In this document: positions 10,431 to 64,000 of the stretch, one piece after another | How the letters are laid out: every line of letters begins with the position of its first letter | Position numbering within the stretch: the stretch's first letter is position 1 | Assembly: GCA_009786825.1 (NCBI GenBank) | Contig: WQRI01000001.1 | Location: 15,266-79,265 of the forward strand | Reading direction: 5' to 3' | Source of the DNA: Bacillota bacterium | Lineage (GTDB): Bacteria > Bacillota > Clostridia > Christensenellales > WQRI01 | Length of the DNA stretch: 64,000 bases | The notes under the pieces: model-generated | Told to the model about the DNA's origin: nothing | Seen by the model: only the letters and a program-made list of their open reading frames with translations | Databases searched by the model: none | Position numbers and translations under genes: made by a program

Positions 10431-10436
10431 AAGACT

Positions 10437-12209: not shown

Positions 12210-12365
12210 AATATGTCCTCCCCTTTTGGATATGTAAATTCTTTTACACACCCAGCATTTTATAAATATTTTTGTTATTTACTTTAATTTTGTGGTAGGC
12301 TTATTTTAGCCCAACTATAAATTAACCTAACTATCTATTAAACTAACTATCAATTCAACTATCCG

Positions 12366-12704: not shown

Positions 12705-12888
12705 AAGTAATTCCCCCTGACACATTATCTTAAAATATTTTGTTTAATATTATCAGTTCTAAGTTGTGTTGAATGATGGTGCGCAGGTACGTAAATTTTT
12801 TGACCTTGTGACTACGCCCGCACGCACACTGCTGAATGCTACCTTAAAACTGCGGAGGCACTCAGACAAAAAATTTACATATCAAGCA

Positions 12889-13239: not shown

Positions 13240-13442
13240 AATTTTTCCCCTTGTTTTTTTCGTGTACGTAAACGAATGCCTTACGCCCTTTTATTTGTTT
13301 TTTCGTTTTTTCTTATTTTGTTTTTTCTCGTACGTAAACGAATGCTTTACGTTTTTGTTTTAGTTATTTGTTTTGTGACTTAATCTTTACGTTTTAGGTT
13401 TTGATTTCTGTTTGTTTTTCGAAGTTGCCTATATAAGATAAC

Positions 13443-13790
13443 CTACATAGGTGTTACAATAAACGAGCCGCCTAAGTAATCCCAATTTTGATTAACATCG
13501 CTTGGCTTACTTGCGTTTACCATTTGTGCGCTTACTACATCGCCATTTTTGCTACACGTTTGCATACTAAATAAAAAACTTTTTCCATCACTTATTTCTG
13601 TATGCACAATGTTGCCCCTAGAAGTTGTAACCTTGTCGAATCTCCAGCCCGGCGTATTTACAGCAACTTCACTAAGCCTTGCGTACTCTGCCGTAATAAA
13701 ACTGCTATCGCTTCCGCCACTTATGCCCTCTAGTTGCGTATCACTTACTTCTCGCCCGCCCTCTGGTAAAATTAAATTAGTTTTTTCCAT
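13443..13790 (-). CDS. double-glycine-leader protein, cargo family 4 (first gene of the array)
   Basis: Leader MEKTNLILPEGGREVSDTQLEGISGG|S. Cargo block FITAEYARLSEVAVNTPGW ... VVSAQMVNASKPSDVNQNW. Confidence 0.8.
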   Translation of the reverse strand: MEKTNLILPEGGREVSDTQLEGISGGSDSSFITAEYARLSEVAVNTPGWRFDKVTTSRGNIVHTEISDGKSFLFSMQTCSKNGDVVSAQMVNASKPSDVNQNWDYLGGSFIVTPM

Positions 13791-34380: not shown

Positions 34381-34746
34381 TTACAACTGCTCGTTTAGTT
34401 TCTTGATTATTGAAATAAGCATTTTTCTTGTTTCTTCTAGCAACGATATACTTTTTTCAACTTCTTTGTTTTTTAGCAAGCCCAAATTCACGCACGCTAG
34501 AATTTGTGTTTCTAGTTCGTATGCTGAACCTCTTGCAACTGATAAAAACTGCCTATACTCTTTAGGCGAGTTTCTGCCCCAGCCTTCTGCTATGTTTGAT
34601 GGGATAGACAGTGCAGAGCGTTGCATTTGGTTTGCTAGAATGTATTTTTGTTCTGGTGGCAGAAGGTTGCATATTTTATAGACTTCTGTTAGAAGGTCCA
34701 TAGATTTTTGCCACACGATAAGTTCTTTAAAACTTTTTATTTTCAT
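34381..34746 (-). CDS. four-helix-bundle protein (23S rRNA intervening-sequence protein family)
   Basis: FKELIVWQKSMDL..EVYK....LP..E.Y.L..QMQRSALSIPSNIAEGWGR.S.KEY.QFL.VARGSAYELETQ. Confidence 0.85.
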   Translation of the reverse strand: MKIKSFKELIVWQKSMDLLTEVYKICNLLPPEQKYILANQMQRSALSIPSNIAEGWGRNSPKEYRQFLSVARGSAYELETQILACVNLGLLKNKEVEKSISLLEETRKMLISIIKKLNEQL

Positions 34747-37207: not shown

Positions 37208-39223
37208 TTAAGACGCTTCCTCTGAGAACTGGCTTTGGTGCAGGCGGGCGTAGTAGCCACCTTTTGCTAGAAGTTGGTTATGGTTGCCTTGTTCTACAAT
37301 GTCGCCGTTGTTTACTACTAGTATTATGTCGGCACTTCTGATTGTGCTTAGGCGGTGGGCAATTACAAATGATGTTCTGCCGCGGGATAGGCTTTGCAGG
37401 GCTTGTTTTATGCTGACTTCTGTGCGCGTGTCTACGCTTGATGTTGCTTCATCTAGTATTATGATTGCGGGGTTGGCTAAAAACACCCTTGCTATTGTAA
37501 GAAGTTGTTTTTGACCGGCAGAGATGTTTGTTGCATCTTCGTTTAGTATTGTGTTGTAGCCATCTGGCATTTTTTCTATGAAGTAGTGGGCTTGGGCTTT
37601 TGTTGCGGCTTTTATAATTTCTTCGTCTGTTGCATCTTCTTTGCCGTAGGCTATGTTGTCGCGTATGCTTCCGTTGAACAGCCACGTGTCTTGCAAAACC
37701 ATACCGAAGCACTTGCGAAGTGTGTAGTGGTCTAGCGTTGAGATGTCTGTGCCATCTAGCGTTATTTTACCGCTGTTAATCTCGTAAAAGCGCATAAGCA
37801 AGTTTACGATTGTGGTTTTGCCAGCACCCGTTGGTCCGACAATTGCTATGGTCTGACCCGCTTTTGCCGTTAGGTTCATATTGTTTATTATAATTTTTTC
37901 TGGCTCGTAGCCGAATGTTACGTTGTTGAATTCTATGTCGCCTTTTATACTTGAGGGTTCAGCGAACAGCGATGAGCGATGAGGTTTTTGGGTTTCTTTA
38001 TTAATTGCGGTCTCCGTTTCAATCTGACCGCTGGTCGCTTCCCGCTGGTCGCTCTTATACTGTTCGCTGGTCGCTGACCGCTGGTCGCTGACAACGTCCG
38101 CTATCTCTTCTTCATCTAGTATCTCAAACACGCGCTCGGCGCTTGCTATTGTGCTTTGTATTACGCCGATTATTTGTGCGGCTTGCGAAATTGGCATTCC
38201 TAGCGTGCGTACGTACTGTACAGACGCTTGAATATCACCCGCGCTTATTCTGCCCGCGCGCAAGTGTATTGCGCCCACAACAACTACAAGCACGTATGTC
38301 ACGTTGGATAAAAAGCGCATAAGGGGCATTATAAGGGCTGTTAAAAACTGGGCGCGCTTGGACGCATCGTATAAGTCTGCGTTTATATTATCGAATTGCT
38401 CTATCGCTTTTTGCTCGTACGAGAATGCTTTTACTACTGTGTGAGAGCCGTACATCTCTTCTATGTGTGCGTTGATTTGACCCGTGTGCATTGCGCTTCG
38501 CTTGAATTGTTTTTGGCTACGCTTTGCTATAAAAGCGGTTGCTAAAAGGGAGATGGGTATGCTTCCAACAACAATTAGCGCAAGCAACCAATGAATTGTA
38601 AACATCATTATTACAGAGCCTACAACTTGTATTACTGCAGAAATTACTTGCAGTAGGGTTTGTTGAAGCGTTGTGCTTATTGTGTCTATGTCGTTGGTCA
38701 TTCGGCTTAGGGTTTCGCCGTAACTGTTTTTGTCGTAGAATTTTAGCGGGACGCGGTCTAGTTTTTGCTTCATCTCGCGGCGCATTCTGAATACTATGCG
38801 CTGAGCCACGCCCGATATTAAAAAAGAGGCGATGTACGATATTATAGAACTTGATGTGTAGAGTATGCCCGCAATTACTAGTAGGCGCACAACGTTTTGT
38901 AGGGTTGATAGCCCTTCCGCCATTAAGAATATATTTGTGGTTGCCTCGCCTGAGATGCGCGGACCAACTATCCAAACGCCCGTGCCGACTATTGTTATAA
39001 AAATTACAAAAGCCAATAGATAAGCCTCGCGCCCCATATATGTTGTGAGACGGCGGAATGTGCCTTTAAAATCTTTTGCCTTTTGCGCAAAGCCCATACC
39101 CGCACGACCAAAGCCCCTAGGTTGCGCTTGCCCCGCCTTTTGTTGCTGGCGGACAAGGTCTAGGTCTTTTTGGTCTTGAGTGTTTTCAGGTTTGCCCTGC
39201 TTGTTGTTTTTATTTTTGCTCAT
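37208..39223 (-). CDS. ABC exporter, fused permease/ATPase (heterodimer partner 2) with an element-derived insertion in the TMD-NBD linker
   Basis: Six-TM exporter fold. Walker A GPTGAGKTT, signature ISAGQKQ, Walker B IIILDEATS. There is no N-terminal C39 peptidase domain. Confidence 0.88.
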   Translation of the reverse strand: MSKNKNNKQGKPENTQDQKDLDLVRQQQKAGQAQPRGFGRAGMGFAQKAKDFKGTFRRLTTYMGREAYLLAFVIFITIVGTGVWIVGPRISGEATTNIFLMAEGLSTLQNVVRLLVIAGILYTSSSIISYIASFLISGVAQRIVFRMRREMKQKLDRVPLKFYDKNSYGETLSRMTNDIDTISTTLQQTLLQVISAVIQVVGSVIMMFTIHWLLALIVVGSIPISLLATAFIAKRSQKQFKRSAMHTGQINAHIEEMYGSHTVVKAFSYEQKAIEQFDNINADLYDASKRAQFLTALIMPLMRFLSNVTYVLVVVVGAIHLRAGRISAGDIQASVQYVRTLGMPISQAAQIIGVIQSTIASAERVFEILDEEEIADVVSDQRSATSEQYKSDQREATSGQIETETAINKETQKPHRSSLFAEPSSIKGDIEFNNVTFGYEPEKIIINNMNLTAKAGQTIAIVGPTGAGKTTIVNLLMRFYEINSGKITLDGTDISTLDHYTLRKCFGMVLQDTWLFNGSIRDNIAYGKEDATDEEIIKAATKAQAHYFIEKMPDGYNTILNEDATNISAGQKQLLTIARVFLANPAIIILDEATSSVDTRTEVSIKQALQSLSRGRTSFVIAHRLSTIRSADIILVVNNGDIVEQGNHNQLLAKGGYYARLHQSQFSEEAS
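37955..38100. repeat. intergenic-type repeat element read through in frame inside the ABC exporter gene
   Basis: GGGTTCAGCGAACAGCGATGAGCGATGAGGTTTTTGGGTT...CTGACCGCTGGTCGCT...CTGTTCGCTGGTCGCTGACCGCTGGTCGCTGAC. The same words occur as in the intergenic copies at 33810-33900, 34230-34380 and 34750-34877 (e.g. GAGCGAACAGCGATGAGTTTTTGGCTT). Confidence 0.75.
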
Positions 39224-39237
39224 AGTTTTATTTTTTG

Positions 39238-39394
39238 AATGTACAAATTACAATGTACAATGTACAAATGTTTCACCGCTAGCGCGGGCAATATTTTGCG
39301 TTTGCAAATGCTCTAAAAATCATAACGCAGACTGTTCAAACGCTTTGCAATTAACGAATTTAACATTTGTAATTTGTACACTGTAATTTGTAAT
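39238..39394. repeat. intergenic hairpin element, TGTACAAATTACAA flavour, canonical core
   Basis: AATGTACAAATTACAATGTACAATGTACAAAT - GTTTCACCGCTAGCGCGGGCAATATT ... GACTGTTCAAACGCTTTGCA - ACATTTGTAATTTGTACACTGTAATTTGTAATTT. Confidence 0.85.
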
Positions 39395-39398
39395 TTGG

Positions 39399-41150
39399 CT
39401 AGTTCTCTTGTGAGTTTACTATCTCTCTATACACGCTACAACTCTGAAGTAATTGCTCGTTCGTGCCTTGTGAGACTATTTGCCCTTCTTCTAGTACTAT
39501 AATGTTATCTGCTTCTTTTATTGTGGATACGCGCTGGGCTACTATTATTGTGATTGCTTCTTTGCCCGCCTCTCTCTTTGTGGTTTCTGTTTTTAAGTTT
39601 GCGCGTACTTGGGCGTCTGTTGTGTAGTCTAGCGCCGAGAAAGTGTCGTCAAACAAGTATATGCTGGGGCTTCCTACAACTGCGCGCGCTATGCTTAGCC
39701 TTTGCTTTTGCCCACCGCTAAAGTTTTTGCCGCCTTGCGCAACCGGTGCATCTAAGCCTTTTTCTAGCGCGAACTCTGCACTAGCAACATCTAGCGCGTG
39801 TAAAATTTCGCTCTCCGATGCATCTGCCTTACCTACTAAAATGTTGCTTACTATATCACCCTTAAACAGCATTGCTTTTTGAGATGTATAGCCAATTTGG
39901 CTTCTGTAGTCTTTCACGTTAAACTCGCGTATGTTTGTGCCACTTACGCTTATGCTTCCGCTGTCTATATTGTAAAAGCGCATAAGTATATTTGCTAGGG
40001 TTGTTTTTCCGCTTCCGGTCGGACCAATTATTGCTGTGGTTTGCCCCGCGTGCGCGCTAAAACTTATATCTCTAAGGGCTGGTTTGCTTGCGCGCGGATA
40101 TGTAAACGTAACATTTTCAAACACAAGCGTGCCACCGCATAACTCGCCCCGCCCTAAAGGCTTACCGCCGTTGTCGTTAATTTCTGGCTGTATTTTTAAA
40201 ATCTCGTTTATTCTGTTTGCGCTGGCTTGAGAGCGCGGCCATTGTATAAACAGCATAGTGAACATCATAAACGCGAACATAATCTGCATAGAGTACTGGA
40301 ACACGGCGAATACGCGCGCTAGTTCTGCGCGTGAGATTGTCTCGCCCGCATCTACTTGACCTTGTGTTGTGTGCGCCGTTAAAAATATAATGCCTAGTTG
40401 CATTCCAAACATCACAAGCATTGCGACGGGGTTTGTTATGCTGGCTATTCTGTTAACCCTAAGGGTTGTGCGCGTTAGGTTTACGTTGCTCTCGTGAAAG
40501 CGCTGTTGCTCTCTGGCTTGTCTGTTAAAGGCGCGTGTTACGCGTACGCCCGTAAGCCCTTCGCGCGCGACAAGTGTCAGTTTATCTAAGCGCTTTTGAA
40601 TGCGGTTGTACATCGGGAATACCACAAACATAACTGCCGCAACAATCAGTAGCATTATGCCTAGCGCGCCACCTATAACTAGCATATAGTCGCCGCCAAA
40701 CTCGCTTGCGTATATTATACCAAAAACAAAGGTGATAGGGGCGGAAGCCATTGTTGTAAACATCAGCACAAAAAACTGTTGCACTTGCTGAACATCGTTT
40801 GTTGTGCGCGTAATTAGGCTTGCCGTGCCTACTTCATCAAACTCTTTTAGCGAAAAACCCTCTACTTTTTCGAAAACCCTTTTGCGTAAGTTTCTAGAAA
40901 AGCCCACCGCCATTCTAGAAGCAAAAAACGCAACAAACACATTCGCAACAATCGCGCCAAACGCAAGCCCAAACATCCACCCGCCGCGCTCTATAATTTG
41001 CGCAACGCTCTCGTATTCTGTTGCGCCTATTGTTGCCGCCATTCTGCGCGGAAGTTCTAAGTCTAGAAGTGCCGCCGCCGCAACGAAAATAAGTGTCAGC
41101 AACGCTAACACTATTAAACGCGGGGTGAAGATTTTTAAAAGTTTGAACAT
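39399..41150 (-). CDS. ABC exporter, fused permease/ATPase (heterodimer partner 1)
   Basis: Walker A GPTGSGKTT, signature FSGGQKQ, Walker B IYLFDDTFS (a degenerate D instead of E, typical of heterodimeric exporters). Confidence 0.88.
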   Translation of the reverse strand: MFKLLKIFTPRLIVLALLTLIFVAAAALLDLELPRRMAATIGATEYESVAQIIERGGWMFGLAFGAIVANVFVAFFASRMAVGFSRNLRKRVFEKVEGFSLKEFDEVGTASLITRTTNDVQQVQQFFVLMFTTMASAPITFVFGIIYASEFGGDYMLVIGGALGIMLLIVAAVMFVVFPMYNRIQKRLDKLTLVAREGLTGVRVTRAFNRQAREQQRFHESNVNLTRTTLRVNRIASITNPVAMLVMFGMQLGIIFLTAHTTQGQVDAGETISRAELARVFAVFQYSMQIMFAFMMFTMLFIQWPRSQASANRINEILKIQPEINDNGGKPLGRGELCGGTLVFENVTFTYPRASKPALRDISFSAHAGQTTAIIGPTGSGKTTLANILMRFYNIDSGSISVSGTNIREFNVKDYRSQIGYTSQKAMLFKGDIVSNILVGKADASESEILHALDVASAEFALEKGLDAPVAQGGKNFSGGQKQRLSIARAVVGSPSIYLFDDTFSALDYTTDAQVRANLKTETTKREAGKEAITIIVAQRVSTIKEADNIIVLEEGQIVSQGTNEQLLQSCSVYREIVNSQEN

Positions 41151-48080: not shown

Positions 48081-48335
48081 ACACCTTACCCCACCCTGTT
48101 TGTTTAAAAAAGCGCGTATTATAAAAATTTATGCACTAAGGTAAACTTGCCGTGCGCTAGCACATAGCCCTACCAACAAGCAATTCAACCTTAGTGTCTT
48201 TTATCCGCAAGTTTAGTATTACTAAACTCGAAAACATTATTAATTATAGAACATTATAAAAAATTTGTCAACTGTTTTGACAAAAATTTTTTATTTGGGT
48301 GCTTATTTTTTTGTGTGGTTACATACATATAGAGT

Positions 48336-51728: not shown

Positions 51729-51748
51729 ATAGTTATTATGATAACTAT
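51729..51748. promoter_or_regulatory. 20-bp palindrome ATAGTTAT-N4-ATAACTAT upstream of parB
   Basis: ATAGTTATTATGATAACTAT. The same half-sites occur at 53146-53165. Confidence 0.4.
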
Positions 51749-51815
51749 CAGCGTGGGTTTGCAAAATTTTTGGTTTTTAGTTGCTTTTGTACCTGTTTTG
51801 TGCTACAATAAATTT

Positions 51816-52898
51816 ATGAGTAAAAACAGAGGATTGGGCAGGGGGCTAGGTAGCCTTTTTGCCAACACACAAGAAGAATACGAAACACAACTAGAGCAGG
51901 CGAGAGACGACCTATCAAGTGACACGCTTGCTACTATAACTGGGGTATCTCAAACTAAGTCCGGGGGCAATAATAAGGCTAAGTCTAAGGCAGGTACGGG
52001 GGCAGGCGCAAATAATTTGGCTAGCCACTCAAACACCGCAAGTGGTACTACACCCTTAGCATCGGCACACCAAAATGTTTCACGTGAAACATTGGCTGGT
52101 GGCACTAATAATACAAGCGGGGTACAGCAAATATCGCTAAGTTTAATACGCGCAAACAAAAATCAGCCACGCAAAACCTTTAATGATGAGAGGCTGGAAG
52201 AGTTAGCATCATCTATAAAAACTCACGGCGTTATCCAACCCATTTTAGTGCAAAAGAAAGGCGCGGGCTTTGAGATTATAGCGGGTGAGCGACGCTTTAG
52301 GGCTGCGCAATTAACAGAACTAGACTATATCCCTGTAATTGTGCAAAACCTAGAGGCTCAAAGCGCAAAGGAAGTTGCGCTTATAGAAAACCTACAGCGC
52401 GAAGACCTTAACGCTATAGATTCAGCCCTTGCAATACAGTCGCTAATGCAAGAGTTTAGCCTAACACAAGAGACAATCGCAAAAAGAATAGGCAAATCGC
52501 GCCCGGCAGTCGCAAACTTGCTTAGGCTTTTGGGTTTGCCCAAGTTTGTAATGCAGTCGGTTAGAGACGGCACTTTGTCGGCTGGTCACGCAAGAAGCCT
52601 TGCATCTATTTCTGACAGCCAAGCGCAAGTGCGCCTTGCAAAAAAGGCAATAGAGGGCGAGTGGTCTGTGCGCGCGCTAGAGCAAGCGGTTAAAAATTAT
52701 CTAGAGCCGAAGCCAAAAACAAAGGACACGCTAAAACCACCAAAGTCTAAAGAACTTGCAAACCTTGTAAACAACCTAAAGCGCACGCTCTCAACAAAAG
52801 TCTATGCGCTAGGCACAGAAAATAAAGGCAAAATAATAATTGAATACTACAGCACAGACGACCTTGAGAGAATAGAGCAGTTTATGACTGGTAAGTAG
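51816..52898 (+). CDS. parB: chromosome partitioning protein ParB/Spo0J with an N-terminal low-complexity insertion
   Basis: MSKNRGLGRGLGSLF, the QPRK..FNDERLEELASSIKTHGVIQPILV box, GERRFRAA and an HTH (LTQETIAKRIGKSRPAVANLLRLL). The candidate promoter TTGCTT-17-TACAAT ends 6 nt before the ATG. Confidence 0.9.
   Translation: MSKNRGLGRGLGSLFANTQEEYETQLEQARDDLSSDTLATITGVSQTKSGGNNKAKSKAGTGAGANNLASHSNTASGTTPLASAHQNVSRETLAGGTNNTSGVQQISLSLIRANKNQPRKTFNDERLEELASSIKTHGVIQPILVQKKGAGFEIIAGERRFRAAQLTELDYIPVIVQNLEAQSAKEVALIENLQREDLNAIDSALAIQSLMQEFSLTQETIAKRIGKSRPAVANLLRLLGLPKFVMQSVRDGTLSAGHARSLASISDSQAQVRLAKKAIEGEWSVRALEQAVKNYLEPKPKTKDTLKPPKSKELANLVNNLKRTLSTKVYALGTENKGKIIIEYYSTDDLERIEQFMTGK
52076..52091. 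promoter_or_regulatory. parS site (perfect) inside parB
   Basis: TGTTTCACGTGAAACA matches the Firmicute parS consensus TGTTNCACGTGAAACA. Confidence 0.85.
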
Positions 52899-52963: not shown

Positions 52964-52979
52964 TGTTTCACGTGAAACA
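52964..52979. promoter_or_regulatory. parS site (perfect) immediately downstream of parB
   Basis: TGTTTCACGTGAAACA. Confidence 0.85.
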
Positions 52980-53284: not shown

Positions 53285-53361
53285 GGGTGCATAGCTCAGT
53301 CGGTTAGAGCACCACCCTGATAAGGTGGGGGTCGGTGGTTCGAGTCCACTTGCACCCACCA
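53285..53361 (+). tRNA. tRNA-Ile (anticodon GAU), CCA encoded
   Basis: Manual cloverleaf: acceptor GGGTGCA/TGCACCC, anticodon arm CCACC-CTGATAA-GGTGG, T arm GGTGG-TTCGAGT-CCACT. Confidence 0.9.
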
Positions 53362-53499
53362 TTTCGTAATAGGCACAAAGCCTTTGCTTACGTGAAGCCT
53401 TTGCTTAGGTATTTTACAACAATACTTGTAATGCTAGGTTGAGAGCTGAGACTTTAAAAACTCGCTTAGCGCCTGACAACCTTTTAAACTTTTTGCTGT

Positions 53500-53576
53500 G
53501 GGGGTGTAGCTCAGTTGGCTAGAGCGCCTGCCTTGCAAGCAGGAGGTCAGCGGTTCGACTCCGCTCATCTCCACCA
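53500..53576 (+). tRNA. tRNA-Ala (anticodon UGC), CCA encoded
   Basis: Acceptor GGGGGTG/CATCTCC with a G3:U70 pair, anticodon arm CCTGC-CTTGCAA-GCAGG, T arm AGCGG-TTCGACT-CCGCT. Confidence 0.9.
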
Positions 53577-56547: not shown

Positions 56548-56898
56548 TTAATAGTCGCGTCTGCTTTTGTTCAGTTCTTGTACAAATGCTATAAAGCGTT
56601 CTTTTTCTGCTTGTGTTAAGCGGTCGAACTCTTTAAGCGCTCTTTTTTGTATGTCTGTTAAAACCGTAACATCTTCGTCTTCTTCGAAAAATGTTTGCAT
56701 TGACACGCCAAATGCTTTGCAAAGGTTTTCTAGTGCGTTGATTTTTGGCACTACGTTACGCGCAAACCAATTTAAAACAGTAGCCGGCGCTAAGCCAGAC
56801 TCTACCGCTAGACGATTGTTATTCCAACCCCTATCATCGCGAAGGGTTGCTATTTTTCTGATAACTGGGTTTAATTTAGACTTAGAAATTTCTGCCAT
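56548..56898 (-). CDS. XRE-family HTH transcriptional regulator
   Basis: WNNNRLAVESGLAPATVLNWFARNVVPKINALENLCKAFGVSMQTFF. Start moved to MAEISKS, behind the SD AAGGTGG. Confidence 0.75.
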   Translation of the reverse strand: MAEISKSKLNPVIRKIATLRDDRGWNNNRLAVESGLAPATVLNWFARNVVPKINALENLCKAFGVSMQTFFEEDEDVTVLTDIQKRALKEFDRLTQAEKERFIAFVQELNKSRRDY

Positions 56899-57181
56899 TT
56901 GAACCACCTTATTTTATAGTACTTTTTTAAATTTAAATGCTTTAGTAAATGCTATAGTCAATTTTTTTTGTTAAGTTTGTGTTTGTTTTTGTACATATCT
57001 ATTATAGCACATTTATAAATAAAAGACAAGTATTTTTGTGGTATTTTTAAATTTTTTTTGTGTTGACTTTAATCAATTAAAAAATACAAAACTTTAAATA
57101 AACAAATCAAAATATATTACCTTACAACAAAAAGAAGTAGTTATTAGTTAGTTAATAGATAGTATTAGTAATAGTAGGCAG

Positions 57182-57395
57182 TGTGGATATGTGGATAACT
57201 TTTGCAATATAATATTAGGTTAATAAAATTAATTGTGTATTAAAATAAAAAACAAAAAAATAGCTAGTAAACAAACAATTTTTAATCAAAAAGTAGCATT
57301 TTTGCACAGTTTTTGGTATAATACTTAAAAAACCAAATGTTAATAACTTTGTGGACAAAGTTTTTCTTCCTTGGGGTTACTCGCACTTATCCACA
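57182..57395. promoter_or_regulatory. DnaA-box cluster in an AT-rich intergenic region
   Basis: TGTGGATAT (57182-57190, 8/9), TGTGGATAA (57190-57198, perfect), TGTGGACAA (57350-57358, 8/9) and TTATCCACA (57387-57395, perfect, opposite orientation). Confidence 0.6.
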
Positions 57396-57543
57396 ACACC
57401 AAATTTCAAAAACCACAAATCAAATTTTAAAACAAACAACACCCCACAACTCAAAAAGTTTTGAAAGGGGGTCTGGGGGAAAACTTTTTCAAAAGTTTTC
57501 CCCCAACAAACAAACCTTCCCCCAAAAAACAATTACAAATACT

Positions 57544-58803
57544 ATGAGAATTAAAAATATAATTTGTGTTAAGGGCGTCTCGGGATATTTTTTTGACGAC
57601 CAAAAAGCTGTTAAGACATCTGCTAAGGCAGATGGAGAATTTTATATTGGTGAAGCTGTTACTAAAGGCTTTTCTAAGGTTAGACAACCGGGGGAATGCG
57701 TTAGTGTTATGCTTATAATGGAGAGCGGGGCAGTTGCTATTGGGGACTGCTGTGCGGTACAATATTCGGGCGCAGGCGGCAGGGATGACCTTTTTAGAGC
57801 GGATAAGTATATTGACGAGATAAAAAAGTATGTGACACCAAAACTAGTGGGTGAGAAAGTAGACAGCTTTAAAAGACTAGCAAAATTGCTGGATAACATT
57901 AGAGTAGGTGGTAAAAGATTACACAAGGCAATAACTTATGGGTTTTCGCAAGCACTATTGAAAGCGGTTGCACTTACGCAACATAATCAGATGGCACAAG
58001 TTGTTGCGAATGAATATGATTTGGAGATAGATTTAGATAACCCACCTAAGATATTGGCACAAAGCGGCGATAATAGATATTTAAATACGGATAAGATGCT
58101 TATAAAACGCGTGGATACACTTCCGCACGCACTTTTTAATACGGTAGATAAGATAGGTAAGAAGGGTGAGAAATTGGAAGAGTATGTGGGCTGGCTTAGA
58201 GAAAGAGTTAAAATACTTAATGACAAAAATTATATGCCAACGTTTCATATAGATGTTTACGGCACAGTTGGTCAGATTTTTGATAACGATATTAAAAAGG
58301 TGGCAAAATATTTAGAAAAATTAGCGGACATTGCACAACCGCATAAACTGTATGTAGAAGGACCGATAGATACGGGGGATAGGGAAAGCACACTAGAAAA
58401 ATTGAGTGGACTAGTAAAAATATTAGATAAGAATAAAAAGGTGAAAATTGTTGCGGACGAGTGGTGTAATACGCTAGAGGATATTAAAGAGTTTGCGGAT
58501 AAAAAAGCGGCACATATGATACAGATAAAAACGCCGGATTTGGGAAGCATATCGAATTCGATAAAGGCGGTGTTATACTGTAAAGAAAAGGGTGTGGAAG
58601 CGTATCTGGGTGGCACGTGTAACGAAACAGACCAATCTGCTAGAGTGTGTGTTCATATAGCAATAGCAACAGCACCACACCTAATAATGTCTAAACCGGG
58701 AATGGGCGTAGATGAAGGGCTTATGATTACAAGAAACGAACTTAATAGAACACTAGCGGTTTTGAAAGAAGAGATGCTAGAGTATGATTTTTACTTAGAC
58801 TAA
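57544..58803 (+). CDS. methylaspartate ammonia-lyase (enolase superfamily)
   Basis: MRIKNIICVKGVSGYFFDDQKAVK...GFSKVRQPGECVSVMLIMESGAVAIGDCCAVQYSGAGGRDDLF closely parallels clostridial MAL (..GFYFDDQ..VRQ.GE..SV.L.L..G....GDC.AVQYSGAGGRD.LF). Start moved to the Met at 57544. Confidence 0.85.
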   Translation: MRIKNIICVKGVSGYFFDDQKAVKTSAKADGEFYIGEAVTKGFSKVRQPGECVSVMLIMESGAVAIGDCCAVQYSGAGGRDDLFRADKYIDEIKKYVTPKLVGEKVDSFKRLAKLLDNIRVGGKRLHKAITYGFSQALLKAVALTQHNQMAQVVANEYDLEIDLDNPPKILAQSGDNRYLNTDKMLIKRVDTLPHALFNTVDKIGKKGEKLEEYVGWLRERVKILNDKNYMPTFHIDVYGTVGQIFDNDIKKVAKYLEKLADIAQPHKLYVEGPIDTGDRESTLEKLSGLVKILDKNKKVKIVADEWCNTLEDIKEFADKKAAHMIQIKTPDLGSISNSIKAVLYCKEKGVEAYLGGTCNETDQSARVCVHIAIATAPHLIMSKPGMGVDEGLMITRNELNRTLAVLKEEMLEYDFYLD

Positions 58804-58898
58804 AACGCTTAAACTATATGGAATTGGTCGACAGAAAAAATAAATTCTGCGGGGTGTTTTTTTGGCGGGCTTTATTTAAAAGCCGGTCACGTAAAGAT

Positions 58899-61214
58899 AT
58901 GAAACTGATAAAAATACCTAATGAAAAGTACGATGAGTATAGACTTGATGTGATTTTTAAAGCATACAAGTGGGACCCACAGTATATAGACAGAAATACT
59001 GTGGGTAATTTTGTTTTGGTGCTGAAAGAGAGTGAGGTTAAAGAATTAGAGAGACTAACGCAAGAGTTATATAACGAGACTGTGGCGGCAGAAAATGTGA
59101 TATTAAAAGATGATGGGCTTATAAAAAAACTTAAACTGCCACGAAAAATCAGAAAGCATATAAATAAGTCTAAACAGGCTTACACCAAAGAGAGCCATAT
59201 AAGGCTAATGAGATTTGACTTTCACCCGATAGAGAGTGGTGTAGAAAACGAAAATGTAAAAACTGGCGCAACGGGTGCGGTAGTTAATGGGTCAGAAATT
59301 ACAAACGCAACGGGCAAGACAAACACCCAAACACAATGTCCATCTAAAAGGTGGGCTATAAGTGAAGTTAACTCTGATGTGCCGGGCGGCTTTGCAGAGG
59401 CTAGCATTCTGCCAGATTTAGTTAACGAAGTGCTGGGCGGGGTGTTTGCAAAACCCAAAAATTTTGCAAGGGTGCTTGTGGATAGTTTTTTAGAAAAGAC
59501 TAATAGCGGGGACACAATTGCTATAAACCATTGCACGTGCTTTAGCGACGACAGACAACCTATGCAACTTATAGGCGATATGCTAGAGCAAAGTGATAGG
59601 CACGCGCTGTATTGTGCGGCAGACCATATCGTATTTAAAGAAAGGCAAGCATATAGTATACTAGATGGCAATGAAGGGCGTGTGGACGCGTTTTTTCGGT
59701 TTATACCGCTAGAATGGATGCTTAAACTGCCAAAAATGTGGGCGGGCTATTTTGATACTAGCACGCCAAGTTGTAATCACCCGGTAGCCGTATTTTTTCA
59801 GACAAAGCGTGTAGCACTTATTTTTGACGAACTTATAAGGCGGGGCGTAAACCTAGAGTGGTGGAAAAAACTGCTTCCGCATACAGTTAAAGCGCGCGGT
59901 AGGGTAGACAATAAAAAAGATTACATATATAAAATTGCGTTTGGCAGAACGGGCGAGAATATATCCATTAAAGAGGCGCTAAAACCAAAAGACTATAACC
60001 AGATTGTGAGAGAGGCGCTGTTAAGACCAAAACACTACATAAAGCAAAAGCGGTTTATAAGTAAGCCCGTTAGGTCTGAGTGCGGGGCAGAGTATCACGT
60101 GTGTATCGGCACGTATATTGTAGAGGGCAAACTTGCGGGAATGTATTCTAGAATATCGCCCACCGCGCTTATCGGCAGCAGTAGTATTGAAGTTCCGATT
60201 TTGGTAGAGCGTGAGAGTGAGCAAGGTGGGCAAGGAGAGCAAGGTGGGCAAGGTGGGGGGGAACTTTTACCAGATTGTAAAAGTTTCCCCCCACACCCCC
60301 CTTCAAAAGAATCGGGTAGGGTAGAGTTTGGGGCTACGACAGCAAAGCAAAAAGAGAGTGAGAGCGTAAGCAAAAATAGAGAGAGTAGCGATAAAGAGAT
60401 TTTTAAGTTGTGGACACCCAAGGGTTGCGTATGGAGTCCGTGGGTTTTGCCCGTGCCGTTTGTTAACATAAAGCAAAGCGCAGAATATGCCGTTAGTTTA
60501 GATACAGAGCATTGCACTAAATGGGCTGAGAGAATTGTTGCTAAAAGAAGTGTTGCCCCGATAAAAGTTGTCCCAAAAGGTGTGGCTAAAAAAAATGTTA
60601 CCCCTAGTAATGTGGCTATTATAATAGACGAGTGCGCGCAAGACAGTTTTGGTATGGGTATGGCGCTTTACGCACTATACAAAAATGGTAGTGGGGATAA
60701 TGTAGATATTAATAGTGATATTAAGGGGGGCTTCAGAGCAATTCCGTCGTTTTCTGGCACAAAACAGCCAAAGGGCGCAAAGGCTACAACCAACAACGAG
60801 ATTGTAGAAAGCCTTTTGTTGCAAGCCACAGAGTTATTGAAAAGGGATAACTTAAATAGGGTAGAAGCGCCCGCAGAGAACACAAGCGCTTTGGTTGGGG
60901 AAGCACCCACGCAAACAGAAATACCCACACCAGTTTTTATGCTAGATAGTAACCGCCTAAACAAAAAGCGTAGCATAAAAATATTTGATAACTCTTACGA
61001 TACGCTACCGCAAGATTATCCAAGCGCCGCTTTTTTTAAACAGCAGGGTATAGACACAATAGTTGTTAAAACACGAAAACTTCAAAGGGATATAAAACTT
61101 GTGCTTTATAGGCTTCAAAAAGATGGAATGAAAATTTTACACTTAAAGCCAAACAAAGAAAAACCAAAAAGGGTAAGGCTTATAAAAATATTCAAATGGC
61201 ACATAGCGCTATAG
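58899..61214 (+). CDS. glutathionylspermidine-synthase-like (YgiC/YjfC-type) ATP-grasp ligase fused to an uncharacterised C-terminal domain of about 330 aa
   Basis: VLKESEVKELERLTQELYNETVAAENVILKDDGLIKKLKLPRKI ... IRLMRFDFHP ... WAISEVNSDVPGGFAEAS parallels the GspS/YgiC layout (RxDxxxD...LE.NADTP...EA). The linker is EQGGQGEQGGQGGGELLPDCKSFPPHPP. The start is ambiguous (58818 or 58899). Confidence 0.65.
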   Translation: MKLIKIPNEKYDEYRLDVIFKAYKWDPQYIDRNTVGNFVLVLKESEVKELERLTQELYNETVAAENVILKDDGLIKKLKLPRKIRKHINKSKQAYTKESHIRLMRFDFHPIESGVENENVKTGATGAVVNGSEITNATGKTNTQTQCPSKRWAISEVNSDVPGGFAEASILPDLVNEVLGGVFAKPKNFARVLVDSFLEKTNSGDTIAINHCTCFSDDRQPMQLIGDMLEQSDRHALYCAADHIVFKERQAYSILDGNEGRVDAFFRFIPLEWMLKLPKMWAGYFDTSTPSCNHPVAVFFQTKRVALIFDELIRRGVNLEWWKKLLPHTVKARGRVDNKKDYIYKIAFGRTGENISIKEALKPKDYNQIVREALLRPKHYIKQKRFISKPVRSECGAEYHVCIGTYIVEGKLAGMYSRISPTALIGSSSIEVPILVERESEQGGQGEQGGQGGGELLPDCKSFPPHPPSKESGRVEFGATTAKQKESESVSKNRESSDKEIFKLWTPKGCVWSPWVLPVPFVNIKQSAEYAVSLDTEHCTKWAERIVAKRSVAPIKVVPKGVAKKNVTPSNVAIIIDECAQDSFGMGMALYALYKNGSGDNVDINSDIKGGFRAIPSFSGTKQPKGAKATTNNEIVESLLLQATELLKRDNLNRVEAPAENTSALVGEAPTQTEIPTPVFMLDSNRLNKKRSIKIFDNSYDTLPQDYPSAAFFKQQGIDTIVVKTRKLQRDIKLVLYRLQKDGMKILHLKPNKEKPKRVRLIKIFKWHIAL

Positions 61215-61263
61215 TTTTTTGGGTAAAAAAATTAAGGTGGAAAATAATTAAGTATTCCAAAAC

Positions 61264-61292
61264 TTGACTTACAATTAAAAATATAGTATAAT
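61264..61292 (+). promoter_or_regulatory. consensus sigma-A promoter of the E2-like gene
   Basis: TTGACT-17 nt-TATAAT, then the SD AGGGGGT and the ATG at 61345. Confidence 0.7.
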
Positions 61293-61344
61293 AGGTTCGG
61301 CACGGCAGTAAAAGTAAATATTTATTAGATGGCAGGGGGTGCGT

Positions 61345-64000
61345 ATGGCACAGTACGATATAAATAAAACCAAAGGTAAGGTAAGACCTACGGCAGAGAG
61401 TGATAGTAAAGAAGCAAAGGCAAGCAAGGCAGTATTTGAAAGCCAGCGTGCTAAGTTTTTGGCTGCCTCTCACGGAATAGATGCGGGGCTTATAAAGCCA
61501 ACGGGCAAGGGCAAAAAAATTACAGAGCAAGATGTTGTTGCATATTTAAAAACGGGCAGAAAGGCAGAAGAGCAAGCAAAAAAGACAGCAGAAAAAGAGC
61601 AAGAAAAAGCAAGGCTTGCAAGTATGAGCAAAGCAGAAAGAGACGCCCTAAAAGAAGCAGAGAAAAAAGAAAAACAGCGCCTAGCAAAAGAAGCAGAAAA
61701 GCAAAAAAAGGCTGCAGAAAAAGTAAGAAAAGAAATAGAGGCGGCAGAAATAGCGCTTAAAGAAAGACAAAAAGGCAAGCGTGGCGCACTAAGTGCAGCG
61801 GCCGCAAGAAAAGAATTAGAAAAGGCAAAGAAAGAAGCAGACAAAGAAAAGAAAGAAGCAGCAAAGGCTGCTAAGGCTGTAAAGGCAACTAAGGGGGTAA
61901 CTAAAGAGACAGCAAAGGTAGCAACTAAGGTAGAAACCAAGGGGGCAAGTAAGGCGACTAGTAAAGCAAGTGAGACCAAGGCTGATACAAATGTTGCTAG
62001 CGAGATTAACGAAGCAAACGTGGCTAGTGAGATTAAGAGTGCTAGTGAGACAAAGGAAGCAAGCGTTAAGCAAATTATAAGCGGGGTGTCTACAACGGCA
62101 GAGAGCGTAGAGATAGATGTTGCTAGTGAACTTTTTGCTGATGTTCAGCGAGTGGCGGCAAAGGGTGGCTTTAAAAAACTAGATGAGAGTGAAATAGCAA
62201 GCGAGCAGTCTGCTGAGCAAGAAATTAACGAAGCACAAGATGTAGATAATGAAGCCCAAGCAATAGAAACAGAGCAAGATATTGTAGCCGAGAAACAAGC
62301 ACAAGTTGCAGAAGTAGAGAGTGAAACGCAAACGGAAACGGAAGCACAAATTATAGAAAATGAGAATGAAATAGAAGCCCAAACTGAAGTACAAGATGCA
62401 GAAAAAGAACAAGAAGTTGCAACAGAAACTGAGACACAAACAATAGAAAAAGAGCAAGTGGCAGAGCCACAAGAGAGTGCTAGAGAAAGCACAACAGATA
62501 GTGGCGACCTTTTTGCTGATGTTCAGCGCGTGGCTGCTAAGGGTGGTTTTAAGGGCTTAGAAGGCAAAGAAAATGAAGGGGCAGAGCAAGCAAGCGAGAT
62601 TGAAAGGCTAAAACAGCAACTAGAGCAACTGCAAAAAGAGAAAGAAGAAGCCTACAAAAAAGCAGAGGAAATAGCAAAAAGAGAGCAAGAGCAACTAGAA
62701 AAAGAAAGGCACCAGAGGGCAGAGCAAGAGAGAGAGGAAAAAGAGCAAGCCGAAAAATTAGAAGCAGAGAGGCTAGAAAAAGAAAAGGCAGAAAGAGAGA
62801 GAATAGAGCGCGATAAAAAAGAAAAAGAGAGATTAGAGCAAGAAAAAAACGAGCAAGAAAGGTTAGAAAAAGAAAAGGCGGAAGCAGAAAGACAAGAGCA
62901 AGAGAGGCAAGAAAAAGAAAAATTAAAGAAAGAGTTAGAAGCGATAGAGGCAGAAAAGTTGGCAATGCGCCTAGAGTATGAGAGGCGTGAGCAAGAAAGG
63001 CTAGAAAAAGAAAGCCAAGAAAGAGACAGGATAGACGCCCTGCGCCAAGAAAAAGAAAGGCAAGAGAGAGAAAAACTAGAGCAAGAAAAGAATGAGTTAG
63101 AGCGCCAACTAGAAGCAGAAAGAGAGCGCACAAAAGAGTTAGAGCGCCAAAAACAGCAAGAGAGACAGCACCTAGATGAACTAGCAAGGCTAGCAAGTTT
63201 GGCAAACGAGCAAGCGGTAGAGCATAGCGCGCAAGACCAGCCTACAGATGATAGGACAGAGAATGAAATAGGCGAGCAAGATGCAGATACCTTAGCAGAC
63301 TATGTGGACACAGATATAAGCGACGACGACACTACAAGCCAAGACCCAACTACAGACACCGACACATCAGAGAACGAAGCCGAGACACTTGTGTTAAAGC
63401 GCGACGACCTAAACCTAGAAGCCCTAAACAAAATAGAGCATAAAACAATGCAGGTTACTGTAGATGTGTCTAAACTGATAGAGTGGCTAGAAGACAAAAA
63501 AGAGCAAGGCATAACGCTTGATAACGTTGTGCTAAGCGTTGTCTCACGCGCGCTAGATACCCACCCGCAATTTAACGCAAGCCTAGAAGGCGCACACACA
63601 AAGCACCAACCAGACATCAACTTAGGCTATACAATACAAGTTAACGGCAACTCTAAAACAATTGTTATACCAGACTGTCGCGACAAAAACGTAGAGCAAA
63701 TTGCAAGCGAGTTATCAGCAATAAAAATGCTTTACGAAGTGGGCGAGAGTCTAAGCCAAACCCCGCCGACATTTACTGTGGTCTCCCTATCAGACTACGG
63801 CATAGAAAGTTTTAAGCCAGACATCGCGGGCAACAATGTTGCGGCACTAGGCGTTGGGGCTGTGGGCGTAAAAATAAAAGTAGAGGGCGGCTCTACTGTG
63901 CCGTACCCATCAGTTAACCTAACCTTAAGTTACAACCCGCTAGGCATAAACGACTTTCAAGCCGCACAATTTATGAAAACCATAAGCACTACGTTAAATG
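61345..64000 (+). CDS. E2 (2-oxoacid dehydrogenase acyltransferase)-like protein: a PSBD, a charged linker of roughly 680 aa and a catalytic-fold domain lacking the active-site His; 3' end outside the window
   Basis: Hand translation (not in the ORF track because it is open-ended): MAQYDINKTKGK...SQRAKFLAASHGIDAGLIKPTGKGKKITEQDVVAYL is the E3-binding domain. A very long E/K/Q-rich tract follows. The C-terminal LDNVVLSVVSRALDTHPQFNASLEG...TFTVVSLSDYGIESF...VNLTLSYNPLGINDFQAAQF aligns to E2 catalytic domains, with NPL..ND in place of DHR..DG. Confidence 0.75.
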   Translation, partial: MAQYDINKTKGKVRPTAESDSKEAKASKAVFESQRAKFLAASHGIDAGLIKPTGKGKKITEQDVVAYLKTGRKAEEQAKKTAEKEQEKARLASMSKAERDALKEAEKKEKQRLAKEAEKQKKAAEKVRKEIEAAEIALKERQKGKRGALSAAAARKELEKAKKEADKEKKEAAKAAKAVKATKGVTKETAKVATKVETKGASKATSKASETKADTNVASEINEANVASEIKSASETKEASVKQIISGVSTTAESVEIDVASELFADVQRVAAKGGFKKLDESEIASEQSAEQEINEAQDVDNEAQAIETEQDIVAEKQAQVAEVESETQTETEAQIIENENEIEAQTEVQDAEKEQEVATETETQTIEKEQVAEPQESARESTTDSGDLFADVQRVAAKGGFKGLEGKENEGAEQASEIERLKQQLEQLQKEKEEAYKKAEEIAKREQEQLEKERHQRAEQEREEKEQAEKLEAERLEKEKAERERIERDKKEKERLEQEKNEQERLEKEKAEAERQEQERQEKEKLKKELEAIEAEKLAMRLEYERREQERLEKESQERDRIDALRQEKERQEREKLEQEKNELERQLEAERERTKELERQKQQERQHLDELARLASLANEQAVEHSAQDQPTDDRTENEIGEQDADTLADYVDTDISDDDTTSQDPTTDTDTSENEAETLVLKRDDLNLEALNKIEHKTMQVTVDVSKLIEWLEDKKEQGITLDNVVLSVVSRALDTHPQFNASLEGAHTKHQPDINLGYTIQVNGNSKTIVIPDCRDKNVEQIASELSAIKMLYEVGESLSQTPPTFTVVSLSDYGIESFKPDIAGNNVAALGVGAVGVKIKVEGGSTVPYPSVNLTLSYNPLGINDFQAAQFMKTISTTLN

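What the first reader, a model, noticed from the sequence alone, without database searches (positions are those of the whole stretch)
56908..57543. DnaA-box cluster in a very AT-rich 630-bp gap, close to parB/parS and the gene-orientation switch
Four DnaA boxes lie within 215 bp. Two are perfect (TGTGGATAA at 57190-57198 and TTATCCACA at 57387-57395). Two match 8/9 (TGTGGATAT at 57182-57190, which overlaps the first perfect box by one nucleotide, and TGTGGACAA at 57350-57358). They are preceded by about 270 bp of extremely AT-rich sequence (56910-57180) that could act as an unwinding region.

In this window nearly all genes left of about 51.65 kb are on the minus strand and nearly all to the right are on the plus strand. 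Two perfect parS sites lie 4-5 kb away. This is the context expected near a replication origin, yet no dnaA or dnaN gene is present in the window. The alternatives are a secondary DnaA-box cluster that titrates DnaA, or DnaA-dependent regulation of the downstream MAL/ATP-grasp operon, since the extended -10 promoter TGGTATAAT at 57314-57322 lies between the boxes.
Basis: partly seen in the sequence, partly recalled or inferred. Interest (0 to 1): 0.6.

Follow-up and report, generated by a model that had tools for sequence, protein, structure and literature searches.

The report
Chromosome replication origin far from dnaA
This AT-rich gap is very probably the bacterium's chromosome replication origin: it carries the standard DnaA-box, DnaA-trio and unwinding module, but unusually for a Firmicute it is not next to the dnaA and dnaN genes.

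Summary
On the minus strand the sequence reads TTATCCACA-TATCCACA-CTGC-CTA CTA TTA CTA ATA CTA, then about 250 bp of AT-rich DNA. That is a complete basal unwinding system (BUS): tandem boxes, a 12-bp spacer, six DnaA-trios and an unwinding element. Two more boxes lie 152-197 bp upstream.

The 27-nt core (22 fixed bases) occurs in at least 120 species genomes, against about 0.07 expected by chance. In 56 of 57 Firmicutes it lies directly upstream of dnaN, with dnaA on the other side wherever that flank was in the stored stretch.

Over 108 kb of the source contig the cumulative G-C skew has one minimum, at about 49.5-50.5 kb. It is flat to 57 kb, then rises. Genes run 44:3 on the minus strand to the left and mostly on the plus strand to the right. 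The least stable DNA abuts the trios.

No dnaA or dnaN lies within 75.7 kb to the left or 32 kb to the right.

Verdict: a genuine chromosomal oriC of canonical mechanism, apparently single-part and in an atypical gene context (XRE regulator | oriC | methylaspartate-lyase operon). Titration-only or promoter-only roles are unlikely.

The parts
56899..57159 (.). AT-rich DNA unwinding element (18% GC), distal to the trios. It also holds the promoter of the HTH gene.
   Evidence: Composition. Lowest-GC 200-mer (56920-57119) and least stable 100-mer (57076-57176) of 80 kb.
57001..57029 (-). Sigma-70-like promoter (TTGTCT, 17 nt, TG-TATAAT) for the HTH gene, firing away from the boxes.
   Evidence: Consensus scan, 10 of 12 matches with a TG extension. 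Consensus match only.
57160..57177 (+). DnaA-trio array. The plus strand reads 5'-TAG TAT TAG TAA TAG TAG-3', which is 3'-GAT-5'-type trios counted outward from the boxes. There are six units in register.
   Evidence: Sequence. It is the only TAG-rich six-trio run on either strand of 71 kb. Definition.
57178..57181 (.). Short spacer rich in G and C (GCAG; CTGC on the box strand) between the trios and the boxes.
   Evidence: Other origins have GCCC or GGCC at this position.
57182..57190 (-). Proximal DnaA box, ATATCCACA (1 mismatch). It shares one base with the next box, as in Bacillus.
57190..57198 (-). Proximal consensus DnaA box TTATCCACA, 12 bp from the first trio. It is the counterpart of B. 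subtilis box 6.
   Evidence: Spacer mode of 13 and peak of 10-13.
57314..57322 (+). Extended -10 element TGGTATAAT, the likely promoter of the MAL operon, firing away from the unwinding element.
   Evidence: Sequence. The -35 is poor, so the consensus scan did not list it.
57350..57358 (-). Distal DnaA box TTGTCCACA (1 mismatch).
   Evidence: A distal box subregion is required in B. subtilis incC.
57387..57395 (+). Distal consensus DnaA box TTATCCACA, in the opposite orientation.
   Evidence: Distal boxes work in either orientation in B. subtilis.
56548..56898 (-). XRE-family HTH gene (116 aa; NCBI MCL2176390.1). It occupies the position that dnaN holds in canonical Firmicute origins.
   Evidence: Pfam HTH_26 and HTH_3. 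Gene call, accession.
57544..58803 (+). Methylaspartate ammonia-lyase gene (MCL2176391.1), first gene of the right replichore. It lies on the side where dnaA would normally be, but points away from the origin.
   Evidence: Pfam MAAL_N and MAAL_C. Accession.
51738..52898 (+). Orphan parB; no parA is present in 80 kb. It contains one perfect parS at 52076-52091.
   Evidence: Pfam, parS, no ParA by tblastn.
52964..52979 (.). Second perfect parS, TGTTTCACGTGAAACA.

Best explanation
The gap between the HTH gene and the MAL gene is the chromosomal replication origin (oriC) of an uncultured spore-forming Firmicute (NCBI 'Bacillota bacterium' MAG).

Inferred mechanism, by analogy with B. subtilis incC and C. 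difficile oriC2:
1. DnaA-ATP binds the consensus box at 57190-57198 and its overlapping partner at 57182-57190.
2. The two distal boxes at 57350-57395 raise the local DnaA concentration.
3. From the tandem boxes, DnaA polymerises leftwards onto the six DnaA-trios carried by the plus strand (57177 back to 57160). This stretches that strand.
4. The adjoining 18%-GC element (57159 back to about 56900) melts.
5. The helicase is loaded and forks leave in both directions.

Shown here: the sequence anatomy, its identity with oriC modules in other genomes, the skew and strand-bias switch, and the absence of dnaA and dnaN nearby. Inferred: DnaA binding, unwinding and firing.

The origin appears to be in one part. 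It has been separated from dnaA and dnaN, which is atypical for Firmicutes.
For: 1. The minus strand reads TTATCCACA TATCCACA CTGC CTA CTA TTA CTA ATA CTA, followed by AT-rich DNA. This meets every rule of the published BUS search: a box with at most 2 mismatches, a spacer of at most 16 bp with a mode of 13 (here 12), and at least 3 NAN trios (here 6).

2. It is the only such trio run on either strand of 71 kb.

About 0.07 hits are expected by chance. In those loci, 73 are dnaA-BUS-dnaN, 13 are BUS-dnaN and 2 are dnaA-BUS. In 56 of 57 Firmicute loci dnaN lies immediately downstream.

4. On the 23 positions the pattern did not fix, the window scores 15.1 bits. The median for real origins is 18.7, the null mean is -20, and 5e-5 of random window 45-mers reach 15.1. 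The trio run is 6 against a Firmicute median of 6. Distal boxes number 2 against a median of 2.

5. The lowest-GC and least stable DNA of 80 kb abuts the trios.

6. Over 108 kb the cumulative G-C skew has one global minimum, at about 49.5-50.5 kb. Mean skew is -0.25 and -0.15 on the left, 0.04 across 50.5-57.1 kb, and +0.145 and +0.11 on the right.

7. The strand tally is 44:3 minus on the left and 7:1 plus on the right. Plus-strand genes continue to 89 kb apart from a three-gene block.

8. Two perfect parS sites and parB lie 4-5 kb away. Relatives keep cvpA, yabP, yabQ and parB within about 10 kb of rpmH and dnaN.

9. HTH and MAL have consecutive NCBI accessions (MCL2176390 and MCL2176391), so they are adjacent in an independent MAG assembly as well.
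Against: No dnaA or dnaN lies within 75.7 kb to the left or 32 kb to the right. In Firmicutes the unwinding module is almost always between those two genes.

No second DnaA-box cluster (an oriC1 or incAB equivalent) is seen in the 71 kb scanned for box clusters, although both halves are essential in B. subtilis.

The skew minimum and the main strand switch are at 50-51.7 kb, 5.5-7 kb left of the module. parB, two tRNA genes and a DUF2207 gene would therefore be transcribed head-on to replication. Per-gene skew could not settle this.

Only 108 kb of one contig was seen, so a second origin next to dnaA elsewhere cannot be excluded.

No close relatives exist for a conservation test. A BUS-like site outside the dnaA context exists in Sporomusa, next to an SSB-like gene, so the motif alone is not fully specific.
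Confidence: 0.8

Rival explanations
1. It is a secondary DnaA-box cluster near the origin that binds or titrates DnaA without firing, like the B. subtilis DnaA-box clusters or E. coli datA. The real oriC would lie next to dnaA elsewhere in the genome.
For: dnaA and dnaN are absent from 108 kb. A relative with 55% ParB identity (L002) has a cluster of five DnaA boxes just downstream of parB while rpmH lies 10 kb away, so parB-linked secondary clusters exist in this part of the tree.
Against: The L002 cluster has no trio array. The cluster here has tandem boxes, six trios at the canonical 12-bp spacing and the least stable DNA of 80 kb, which a titration site does not need. The skew and strand-bias switch over 108 kb maps here. 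The exact core is an oriC marker in 88 of 120 genomes.
Confidence: 0.1
2. The boxes act mainly as operators. DnaA would repress or activate the divergent HTH and MAL promoters, and the AT-richness would be ordinary promoter DNA.
For: The MAL extended -10 (57314-57322) lies between the proximal and distal boxes. The distal boxes fall in the transcribed leader. The HTH promoter lies inside the AT-rich stretch.
Against: Transcriptional control does not explain the trio array, its exact spacing and orientation, or the match on unconstrained positions to oriC modules from many phyla. It also does not explain the replichore-scale skew switch. Regulation may coexist with origin function, as at dnaA promoters.
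Confidence: 0.05
3. It is the DnaA-dependent origin of an integrated element or of a secondary replicon that carries its own parB and parS, not the main chromosome origin.
For: parB is an orphan with no parA in 80 kb. A BUS-like site in Sporomusa silvacetica lies beside an SSB-like ORF, 0.95 Mb into the chromosome and far from dnaA, which suggests mobile elements can carry such modules.
Against: No integrase, rep, relaxase or phage gene lies near the gap. Both flanks are housekeeping genes: gltX, purA, purB, purC, purF, guaA, proS, argS, tilS and dnaB helicase. The skew V spans at least 108 kb.
Confidence: 0.05

Closest known systems
B. subtilis oriC unwinding region incC (the basal unwinding system: DnaA boxes 6 and 7, DnaA-trios, AT-rich 27-mer), and C. 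difficile oriC2
   Same: Same order and orientation of parts. A consensus box overlaps a weaker box by one base, followed by a 4-bp G+C-rich spacer, CTA/TTA-type trios, AT-rich DNA, and distal boxes 150-200 bp upstream. B. halotolerans reads TTATCCACAAATCCACAAGCCCTACTATTACTTCTACTA. The C. difficile trios read CACCTACTACTATTACTACTATGA. The window reads TTATCCACATATCCACACTGCCTACTATTACTAATACTA.
   Different: Those modules lie between dnaA and dnaN and work with a second box cluster upstream of dnaA. Here the flanking genes are an XRE regulator and a MAL operon, and no second cluster is seen in the 71 kb scanned for clusters. The AT-rich tract is about 250 bp before the next gene, instead of about 60-110 bp.
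oriCs not linked to dnaA (E. coli gidA-mioC; Synechococcus lividus PCC 6715; Chloroflexi loci found here)
   Same: An origin in a gene context without dnaA or dnaN. This is known to be compatible with function. Chloroflexi and a few other genomes carry the same 27-nt core away from dnaA and dnaN.
   Different: Those lineages are not Firmicutes. E. coli oriC lacks the simple tandem-box plus trio layout. In Firmicutes the linkage held in 56 of 57 sampled loci.
B. subtilis DnaA-box clusters and E. coli datA (sites that titrate or inactivate DnaA)
   Same: Several high-affinity boxes in an intergenic region near the origin. A parB-linked cluster of this kind occurs in relative L002.
   Different: Those sites have no DnaA-trio array or unwinding element and do not coincide with the skew minimum (general description from my own knowledge; L002 checked).

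Membership tests
Bacterial oriC with a basal unwinding system (BUS) | A DnaA box with at most 2 mismatches, usually paired in tandem with a weaker box in the same orientation | tested here: met
   TTATCCACA (0 mismatches) and ATATCCACA (1 mismatch), same orientation, overlapping by 1 nt. Rule.
Bacterial oriC with a basal unwinding system (BUS) | Spacer of at most 16 bp (mode 13, peak 10-13) from the better box to the first trio | tested here: met
   12 bp from the perfect box and 4 bp from the weaker box. Rule.
Bacterial oriC with a basal unwinding system (BUS) | At least 3 in-register DnaA-trios (NAN, consensus 3'-GAT-5'), on the correct strand relative to box orientation | tested here: met
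   Six trios, five of type TAG or TAA. It is the only such run on either strand of 71 kb. The orientation equals that of 120 reference origins.
Bacterial oriC with a basal unwinding system (BUS) | AT-rich unwinding element beyond the trios | tested here: met
   83% AT in the next 100 nt, against a mean of 71% in reference loci. Least stable 100-mer and lowest-GC 200-mer of 80 kb.
Bacterial oriC with a basal unwinding system (BUS) | Distal DnaA-box subregion upstream of the proximal boxes | tested here: met
   Boxes at 57350 and 57387. The Firmicute median is 2 boxes in 300 bp. Requirement.
Bacterial oriC with a basal unwinding system (BUS) | Located at the minimum of cumulative GC skew and at the switch in gene strand bias | tested here: met
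   Single minimum at 49.5-50.5 kb in 108 kb, flat to 57 kb, then rising. Strand tally. The offset of 5.5-7 kb is explained by a block of head-on genes. Only part of the genome was visible.
Bacterial oriC with a basal unwinding system (BUS) | DnaA-dependent unwinding and initiation of replication | not testable with these tools
   Needs strand-separation or P1-nuclease assays, DnaA ChIP, or marker-frequency analysis.
Canonical Firmicute bipartite oriC (rpmH-oriC1-dnaA-oriC2-dnaN) | Unwinding module lies between dnaA and dnaN | tested here: not met
   No DnaA or DnaN by Pfam or by tblastn over -18.5 to +89.4 kb.
Canonical Firmicute bipartite oriC (rpmH-oriC1-dnaA-oriC2-dnaN) | A second DnaA-box cluster within a few kb | tested here: not met
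   No other cluster in the 71 kb scanned. The stretches added later hold only isolated perfect boxes.
DnaA-titrating box cluster (B. subtilis DnaA-box clusters, E. coli datA) | A box cluster that binds DnaA but has no unwinding module and does not fire | tested here: inconclusive
   An unwinding module is present here, which argues against membership. Whether it fires cannot be tested with these tools.
DnaA-regulated promoter | Boxes overlapping or just downstream of a promoter, with DnaA-dependent expression | tested here: inconclusive
   The geometry is compatible for the MAL promoter. Expression cannot be tested here.

The most novel reading that the evidence does not exclude
The chromosome has two DnaA-dependent origins: this free-standing, single-part BUS origin, and a conventional one still attached to dnaA-dnaN somewhere in the unseen part of the genome. 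A related reading is that the single origin has been captured between an XRE regulator and an amino-acid-catabolic operon, so that their divergent transcription gates firing.
Probability: 0.08. Interest if true: 0.8.

Novelty: new member of a known kind. Interest (0 to 1): 0.38.

Why it matters
It pins the replication origin of an uncultured Firmicute lineage to a 300-bp module. That helps with genome orientation, growth-rate estimates from peak-to-trough coverage, and checks on MAG assembly.

It is also a natural case of a Firmicute whose unwinding module is physically separated from dnaA and dnaN and has no visible second box cluster. B. subtilis and C. difficile need both halves of their two-part origins, so a natural single-part, unlinked version is a ready test of which elements suffice in this phylum. 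It also tests whether the dnaA-oriC linkage matters for autoregulation.

The mechanism itself is textbook.

Tried and rejected
1. A ParB-based scan of 185,579 species genomes found no relative. The homolog search found only the same MAG at 100% identity, then hits of 56% or less. Footprinting across close relatives was therefore impossible.

2. A MAL-based scan of JGI metagenomes gave one hit at 50% identity, with no DnaA boxes upstream.

3. I compared per-gene coding-strand skew to decide whether parB and DUF2207 lie left or right of the origin. Their value (0.05) is nearer the lagging-strand genes (0.036) than the leading-strand genes (0.10-0.18), but the scatter is too large to count.

4. 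I suspected that the plus-strand block from 51.7 kb was only a local inversion, because argS, tilS and a lipid-kinase gene at 75.7-79.4 kb are on the minus strand. Walking further showed plus-strand genes and positive skew resuming to 89 kb, so I rejected this.

5. I walked the contig to look for dnaA. This reached -18.5 and +89.4 kb. The next step failed because a homolog search with the P-type ATPase did not return the identical protein.

6. Rfam found no RNA family in the gap.

7. There are no Spo0A boxes and no GATC sites in the gap.

8. A weak BUS-like site at 48201 (a single 1-mismatch box plus 4 trios) was set aside as probably chance.

Full report
**1. Observation**

- TGTGGATAT at 57182-57190 (1 mismatch)
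- TGTGGATAA at 57190-57198 (perfect)
- TGTGGACAA at 57350-57358 (1 mismatch)
- TTATCCACA at 57387-57395 (perfect)

The window holds 26 boxes with at most one mismatch, against 12.6 +/- 3.2 in shuffles. This gap contains 4 of them and 2 of the 3 perfect ones. A weighted scan of 71 kb finds no other cluster: the score is 13.5 here and at most 6.0 elsewhere.

Positions 56908-57159 are 18% GC. The lowest-GC 200-mer (56920-57119) and the least stable 100-mer (57076-57176) of 80 kb both lie here.

Two perfect parS sites are at 52076 and 52964. Pfam annotation shows a chromosomal region with aroQ, proS, glnA type III, guaA, purF, purA, purB, purC, ABC transporters, cvpA, yabP, yabQ, gltX, an orphan parB, tRNA-Ile, tRNA-Ala, a DUF2207 gene, an XRE-type HTH gene, the gap, MAL, a glutathionylspermidine-synthase-like protein and an E2-like acyltransferase. 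There is no dnaA or dnaN.

**2.

Read on the minus strand, the proximal boxes are followed by TTATCCACA TATCCACA CTGC CTA CTA TTA CTA ATA CTA, and then by the AT-rich tract. On the plus strand this is 5'-TAG TAT TAG TAA TAG TAG-3', an array of six DnaA-trios of 3'-GAT-5' type. It sits 4 bp from the weaker box and 12 bp from the consensus box.

The published search rules for the basal unwinding system (BUS) are a box with at most 2 mismatches, a spacer of at most 16 bp with a mode of 13 and a peak at 10-13, and at least three NAN trios (PMC8287927). All are met.

It is the only TAG-rich six-trio run on either strand of 71 kb. B. subtilis also needs a distal box subregion, which works in either orientation (PMC6669920). 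The boxes at 57350 and 57387 fit that role. The C. difficile oriC2 trio sequence CACCTACTACTATTACTACTATGA is closely similar (PMC7561715).

**3. Test against other genomes**

I searched one genome per species (185,579 species, 596 Gb) for TTATCCACANATCCACANNNNCTACTA, which has 22 fixed bases and a chance expectation of about 0.07. These came from Bacillus, Clostridia, Negativicutes, Thermus, Cyanobacteria, Poribacteria, Chloroflexi and others.

I took DnaA and DnaN from the B. halotolerans locus and used them as tblastn probes:

| Arrangement | Loci |
|---|---|
| dnaA-BUS-dnaN | 73 |
| BUS-dnaN (most cut off upstream) | 13 |
| dnaA-BUS | 2 |
| Neither gene, with room on both sides | 17 |
| Neither gene, but cut off by the end of the stored stretch on at least one side | 15 |

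The 17 loci with neither gene are mostly Chloroflexi, plus Balneola, Aridibacter and Sporomusa silvacetica.

Of the 57 Firmicute loci, 56 have dnaN directly downstream. The composite motif is therefore a highly specific oriC signature.

The window matches it on independent positions too. It scores 15.1 bits on the 23 unconstrained positions, against a median of 18.7 for real origins, a null mean of -20, and a fraction of 5e-5 of random window 45-mers reaching 15.1. Its trio run of 6 and its 2 distal boxes both equal the Firmicute medians.

**4. Is it the chromosome's origin?**

The window comes from ENA contig ERZ27257340:k141_953906 (187 kb). I extended the view to window coordinates -18,525 to +89,406.

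Over these 108 kb the cumulative G-C curve has one global minimum, at about 49.5-50.5 kb. Mean GC skew by segment:

| Segment (window coordinates) | Mean GC skew |
|---|---|
| -18.5 to 0 kb | -0.25 |
| 1 to 28 kb | -0.15 |
| 28 to 44 kb | +0.02 |
| 44 to 50.5 kb | -0.10 |
| 50.5 to 57.1 kb | +0.04 |
| 57.1 to 75.5 kb | +0.145 |
| 75.5 to 79.4 kb | -0.02 |
| 79.4 to 89.4 kb | +0.11 |

Genes run 44:3 on the minus strand left of 51.7 kb and 7:1 on the plus strand right of 57.1 kb. All called genes from -18.5 to 0 kb are on the minus strand apart from one 119-aa ORF.

Beyond a three-gene minus-strand block (argS, tilS, a lipid kinase), plus-strand genes resume, including the replicative helicase dnaB at about 89 kb. 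This is the polarity expected of an origin, not of a terminus.

The steep positive slope begins exactly at the gap. Immediately around the gap, the HTH gene (minus) and the MAL gene (plus) diverge from it.

The 5.5-7 kb offset between the skew minimum and the BUS is occupied by parB, two tRNA genes and DUF2207 on the plus strand. If the origin is at 57.1 kb these genes are head-on to replication, which would give the near-zero skew observed. Per-gene skew is compatible with this but too noisy to count.

No other intergenic region between 50 and 58 kb has a box with at most 1 mismatch.

**5. The anomaly**

tblastn with DnaA and DnaN finds nothing at E <= 0.01 in 108 kb and no relic near the gap. 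dnaA and dnaN are therefore at least 75.7 kb away on the left and at least 32 kb away on the right. In the 71 kb scanned for box clusters there is none that could serve as an oriC1 or incAB counterpart, and the stretches added later contain only isolated perfect boxes.

The arrangement is not an assembly artefact. The NCBI MAG numbers gltX to MAL consecutively (MCL2176386 to MCL2176391, with HTH as ...390 and MAL as ...391). The same proteins also occur on JGI, Logan and ENA contigs of up to 285 kb.

The nearest ParB relatives (55-56% identity) keep the canonical neighbourhood of rpmH, rnpA, yidC, jag, mnmE, mnmG, rsmG, parA and parB, with cvpA, yabP and yabQ close by. This organism retains cvpA, yabP, yabQ and parB beside the origin but has lost the rest of that neighbourhood from the area. 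The context is therefore derived.

**6. Rival explanations**

*Secondary titration cluster.* This deserves consideration, because relative L002 has five DnaA boxes and at least seven parS-like palindromes just after parB. That cluster has no trios, however, and lies on a monotonic skew slope. Such a site needs neither trios nor an unwinding element.

*Promoter regulation.* DnaA may well influence the MAL promoter (extended -10 at 57314-57322), because the distal boxes lie in its leader. The HTH promoter lies inside the AT-rich tract. Neither fact explains the BUS or the replichore-scale asymmetry.

*Mobile-element or secondary-replicon origin.* This is suggested by the orphan parB and by the Sporomusa BUS-like site beside an SSB-like ORF. 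No mobility genes are present here, and both flanks are housekeeping genes.

**7. Comparison with known systems and novelty**

Mechanistically this is the B. subtilis and C. difficile type of unwinding module. It passes every sequence-level criterion of that family that could be tested. It fails the two criteria for the canonical Firmicute two-part layout: flanking dnaA and dnaN, and a second box cluster.

Origins away from dnaA are well known in other phyla (E. coli; Synechococcus lividus PCC 6715) and are common in the Chloroflexi loci sampled here. This is a new member of a known kind in an unusual context for its phylum, which is moderately interesting.

The location of dnaA in this genome remains unknown, so a second origin linked to dnaA cannot be excluded.

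Noticed in passing
window 7519-13790 (-): Eleven tandem paralogous small genes (115-241 aa, no Pfam hit). Each begins with a double-glycine-type leader, roughly L(V/I)LP..G.E....(E/Q)MQ.(I/V)EGG. This looks like an array of bacteriocin-like precursors. The ABC exporters at 37208-41150 show no detected C39 peptidase domain.
   Followed up: partly
window 53285-53576 (+): A tRNA-Ile(GAT) and tRNA-Ala(TGC) pair, the classic content of a 16S-23S spacer, stands alone with no rRNA gene anywhere in the window. A gene for a 23S-rRNA-intervening-sequence protein is at 34381-34746.
   Followed up: no
window 57544-64000, continuing to 64005 in L001: An unusual operon: methylaspartate ammonia-lyase, a 798-aa glutathionylspermidine-synthase-like protein, and an 886-aa E2-type acyltransferase. 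The E3-binding and catalytic domains of the last are separated by a low-complexity region of roughly 500 aa or more, rich in E, K, Q and A.
   Followed up: partly
window 57396-57543 (+): The MAL leader has a perfect 15-bp hairpin (57474-57488 with 57491-57505), alternative pairing partners upstream, and C-rich direct repeats TTCCCCCAA(C/A)AAACAA. There is no Shine-Dalgarno sequence before the ATG and no Rfam family matches. The fold z-score is -2.5.
   Followed up: partly
L002 10976-12147: In a relative with 55% ParB identity (GCA_944377435.1), the 1.1-kb gap after parB holds five DnaA boxes (11004-11136) and at least seven parS-like palindromes TGTTTCA(C/T)(A/G)TGAAACA, with no trio array. 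This is a parB-linked DnaA-box and parS cluster.
   Followed up: partly
L062 6046-6134 (Sporomusa silvacetica chromosome, about 0.958 Mb): A BUS-like TTATCCACACATCCACAGCCCCTACTACTATTATT lies directly after an SSB-like ORF. More boxes follow about 150 bp further on, and no dnaA or dnaN lies within the 8-kb stretch. It may be the DnaA-dependent origin of an integrated element.
   Followed up: partly
L011, L019, L033, L044, L053, L060, L072, L079, L083, L089, L098, L113, L114, L125: In Chloroflexi genomes the same 27-nt BUS core is usually not adjacent to dnaA or dnaN, unlike in Firmicutes, Thermus and Poribacteria.
   Followed up: no
L003 14747-15072: In another relative with 56% ParB identity, dnaN ends 62 bp upstream of rpmH on the same strand. 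This differs from the usual divergent rpmH | dnaA arrangement and suggests origin-region rearrangements are frequent in this part of the Clostridia.
   Followed up: no
window 48201-48224 (+): A weak BUS-like string, TTATCCGCA AGT TTA GTA TTA CTA, lies in the low-GC gap upstream of yabP. It has a single 1-mismatch box and is probably chance.
   Followed up: no
window 28364-33760 (-) and 3485-7213 (-): Two very large ORFs (1798 aa and 1242 aa) have no Pfam match. The 28-44 kb segment also has near-zero GC skew, unlike its neighbours, so it may be acquired DNA.
   Followed up: no
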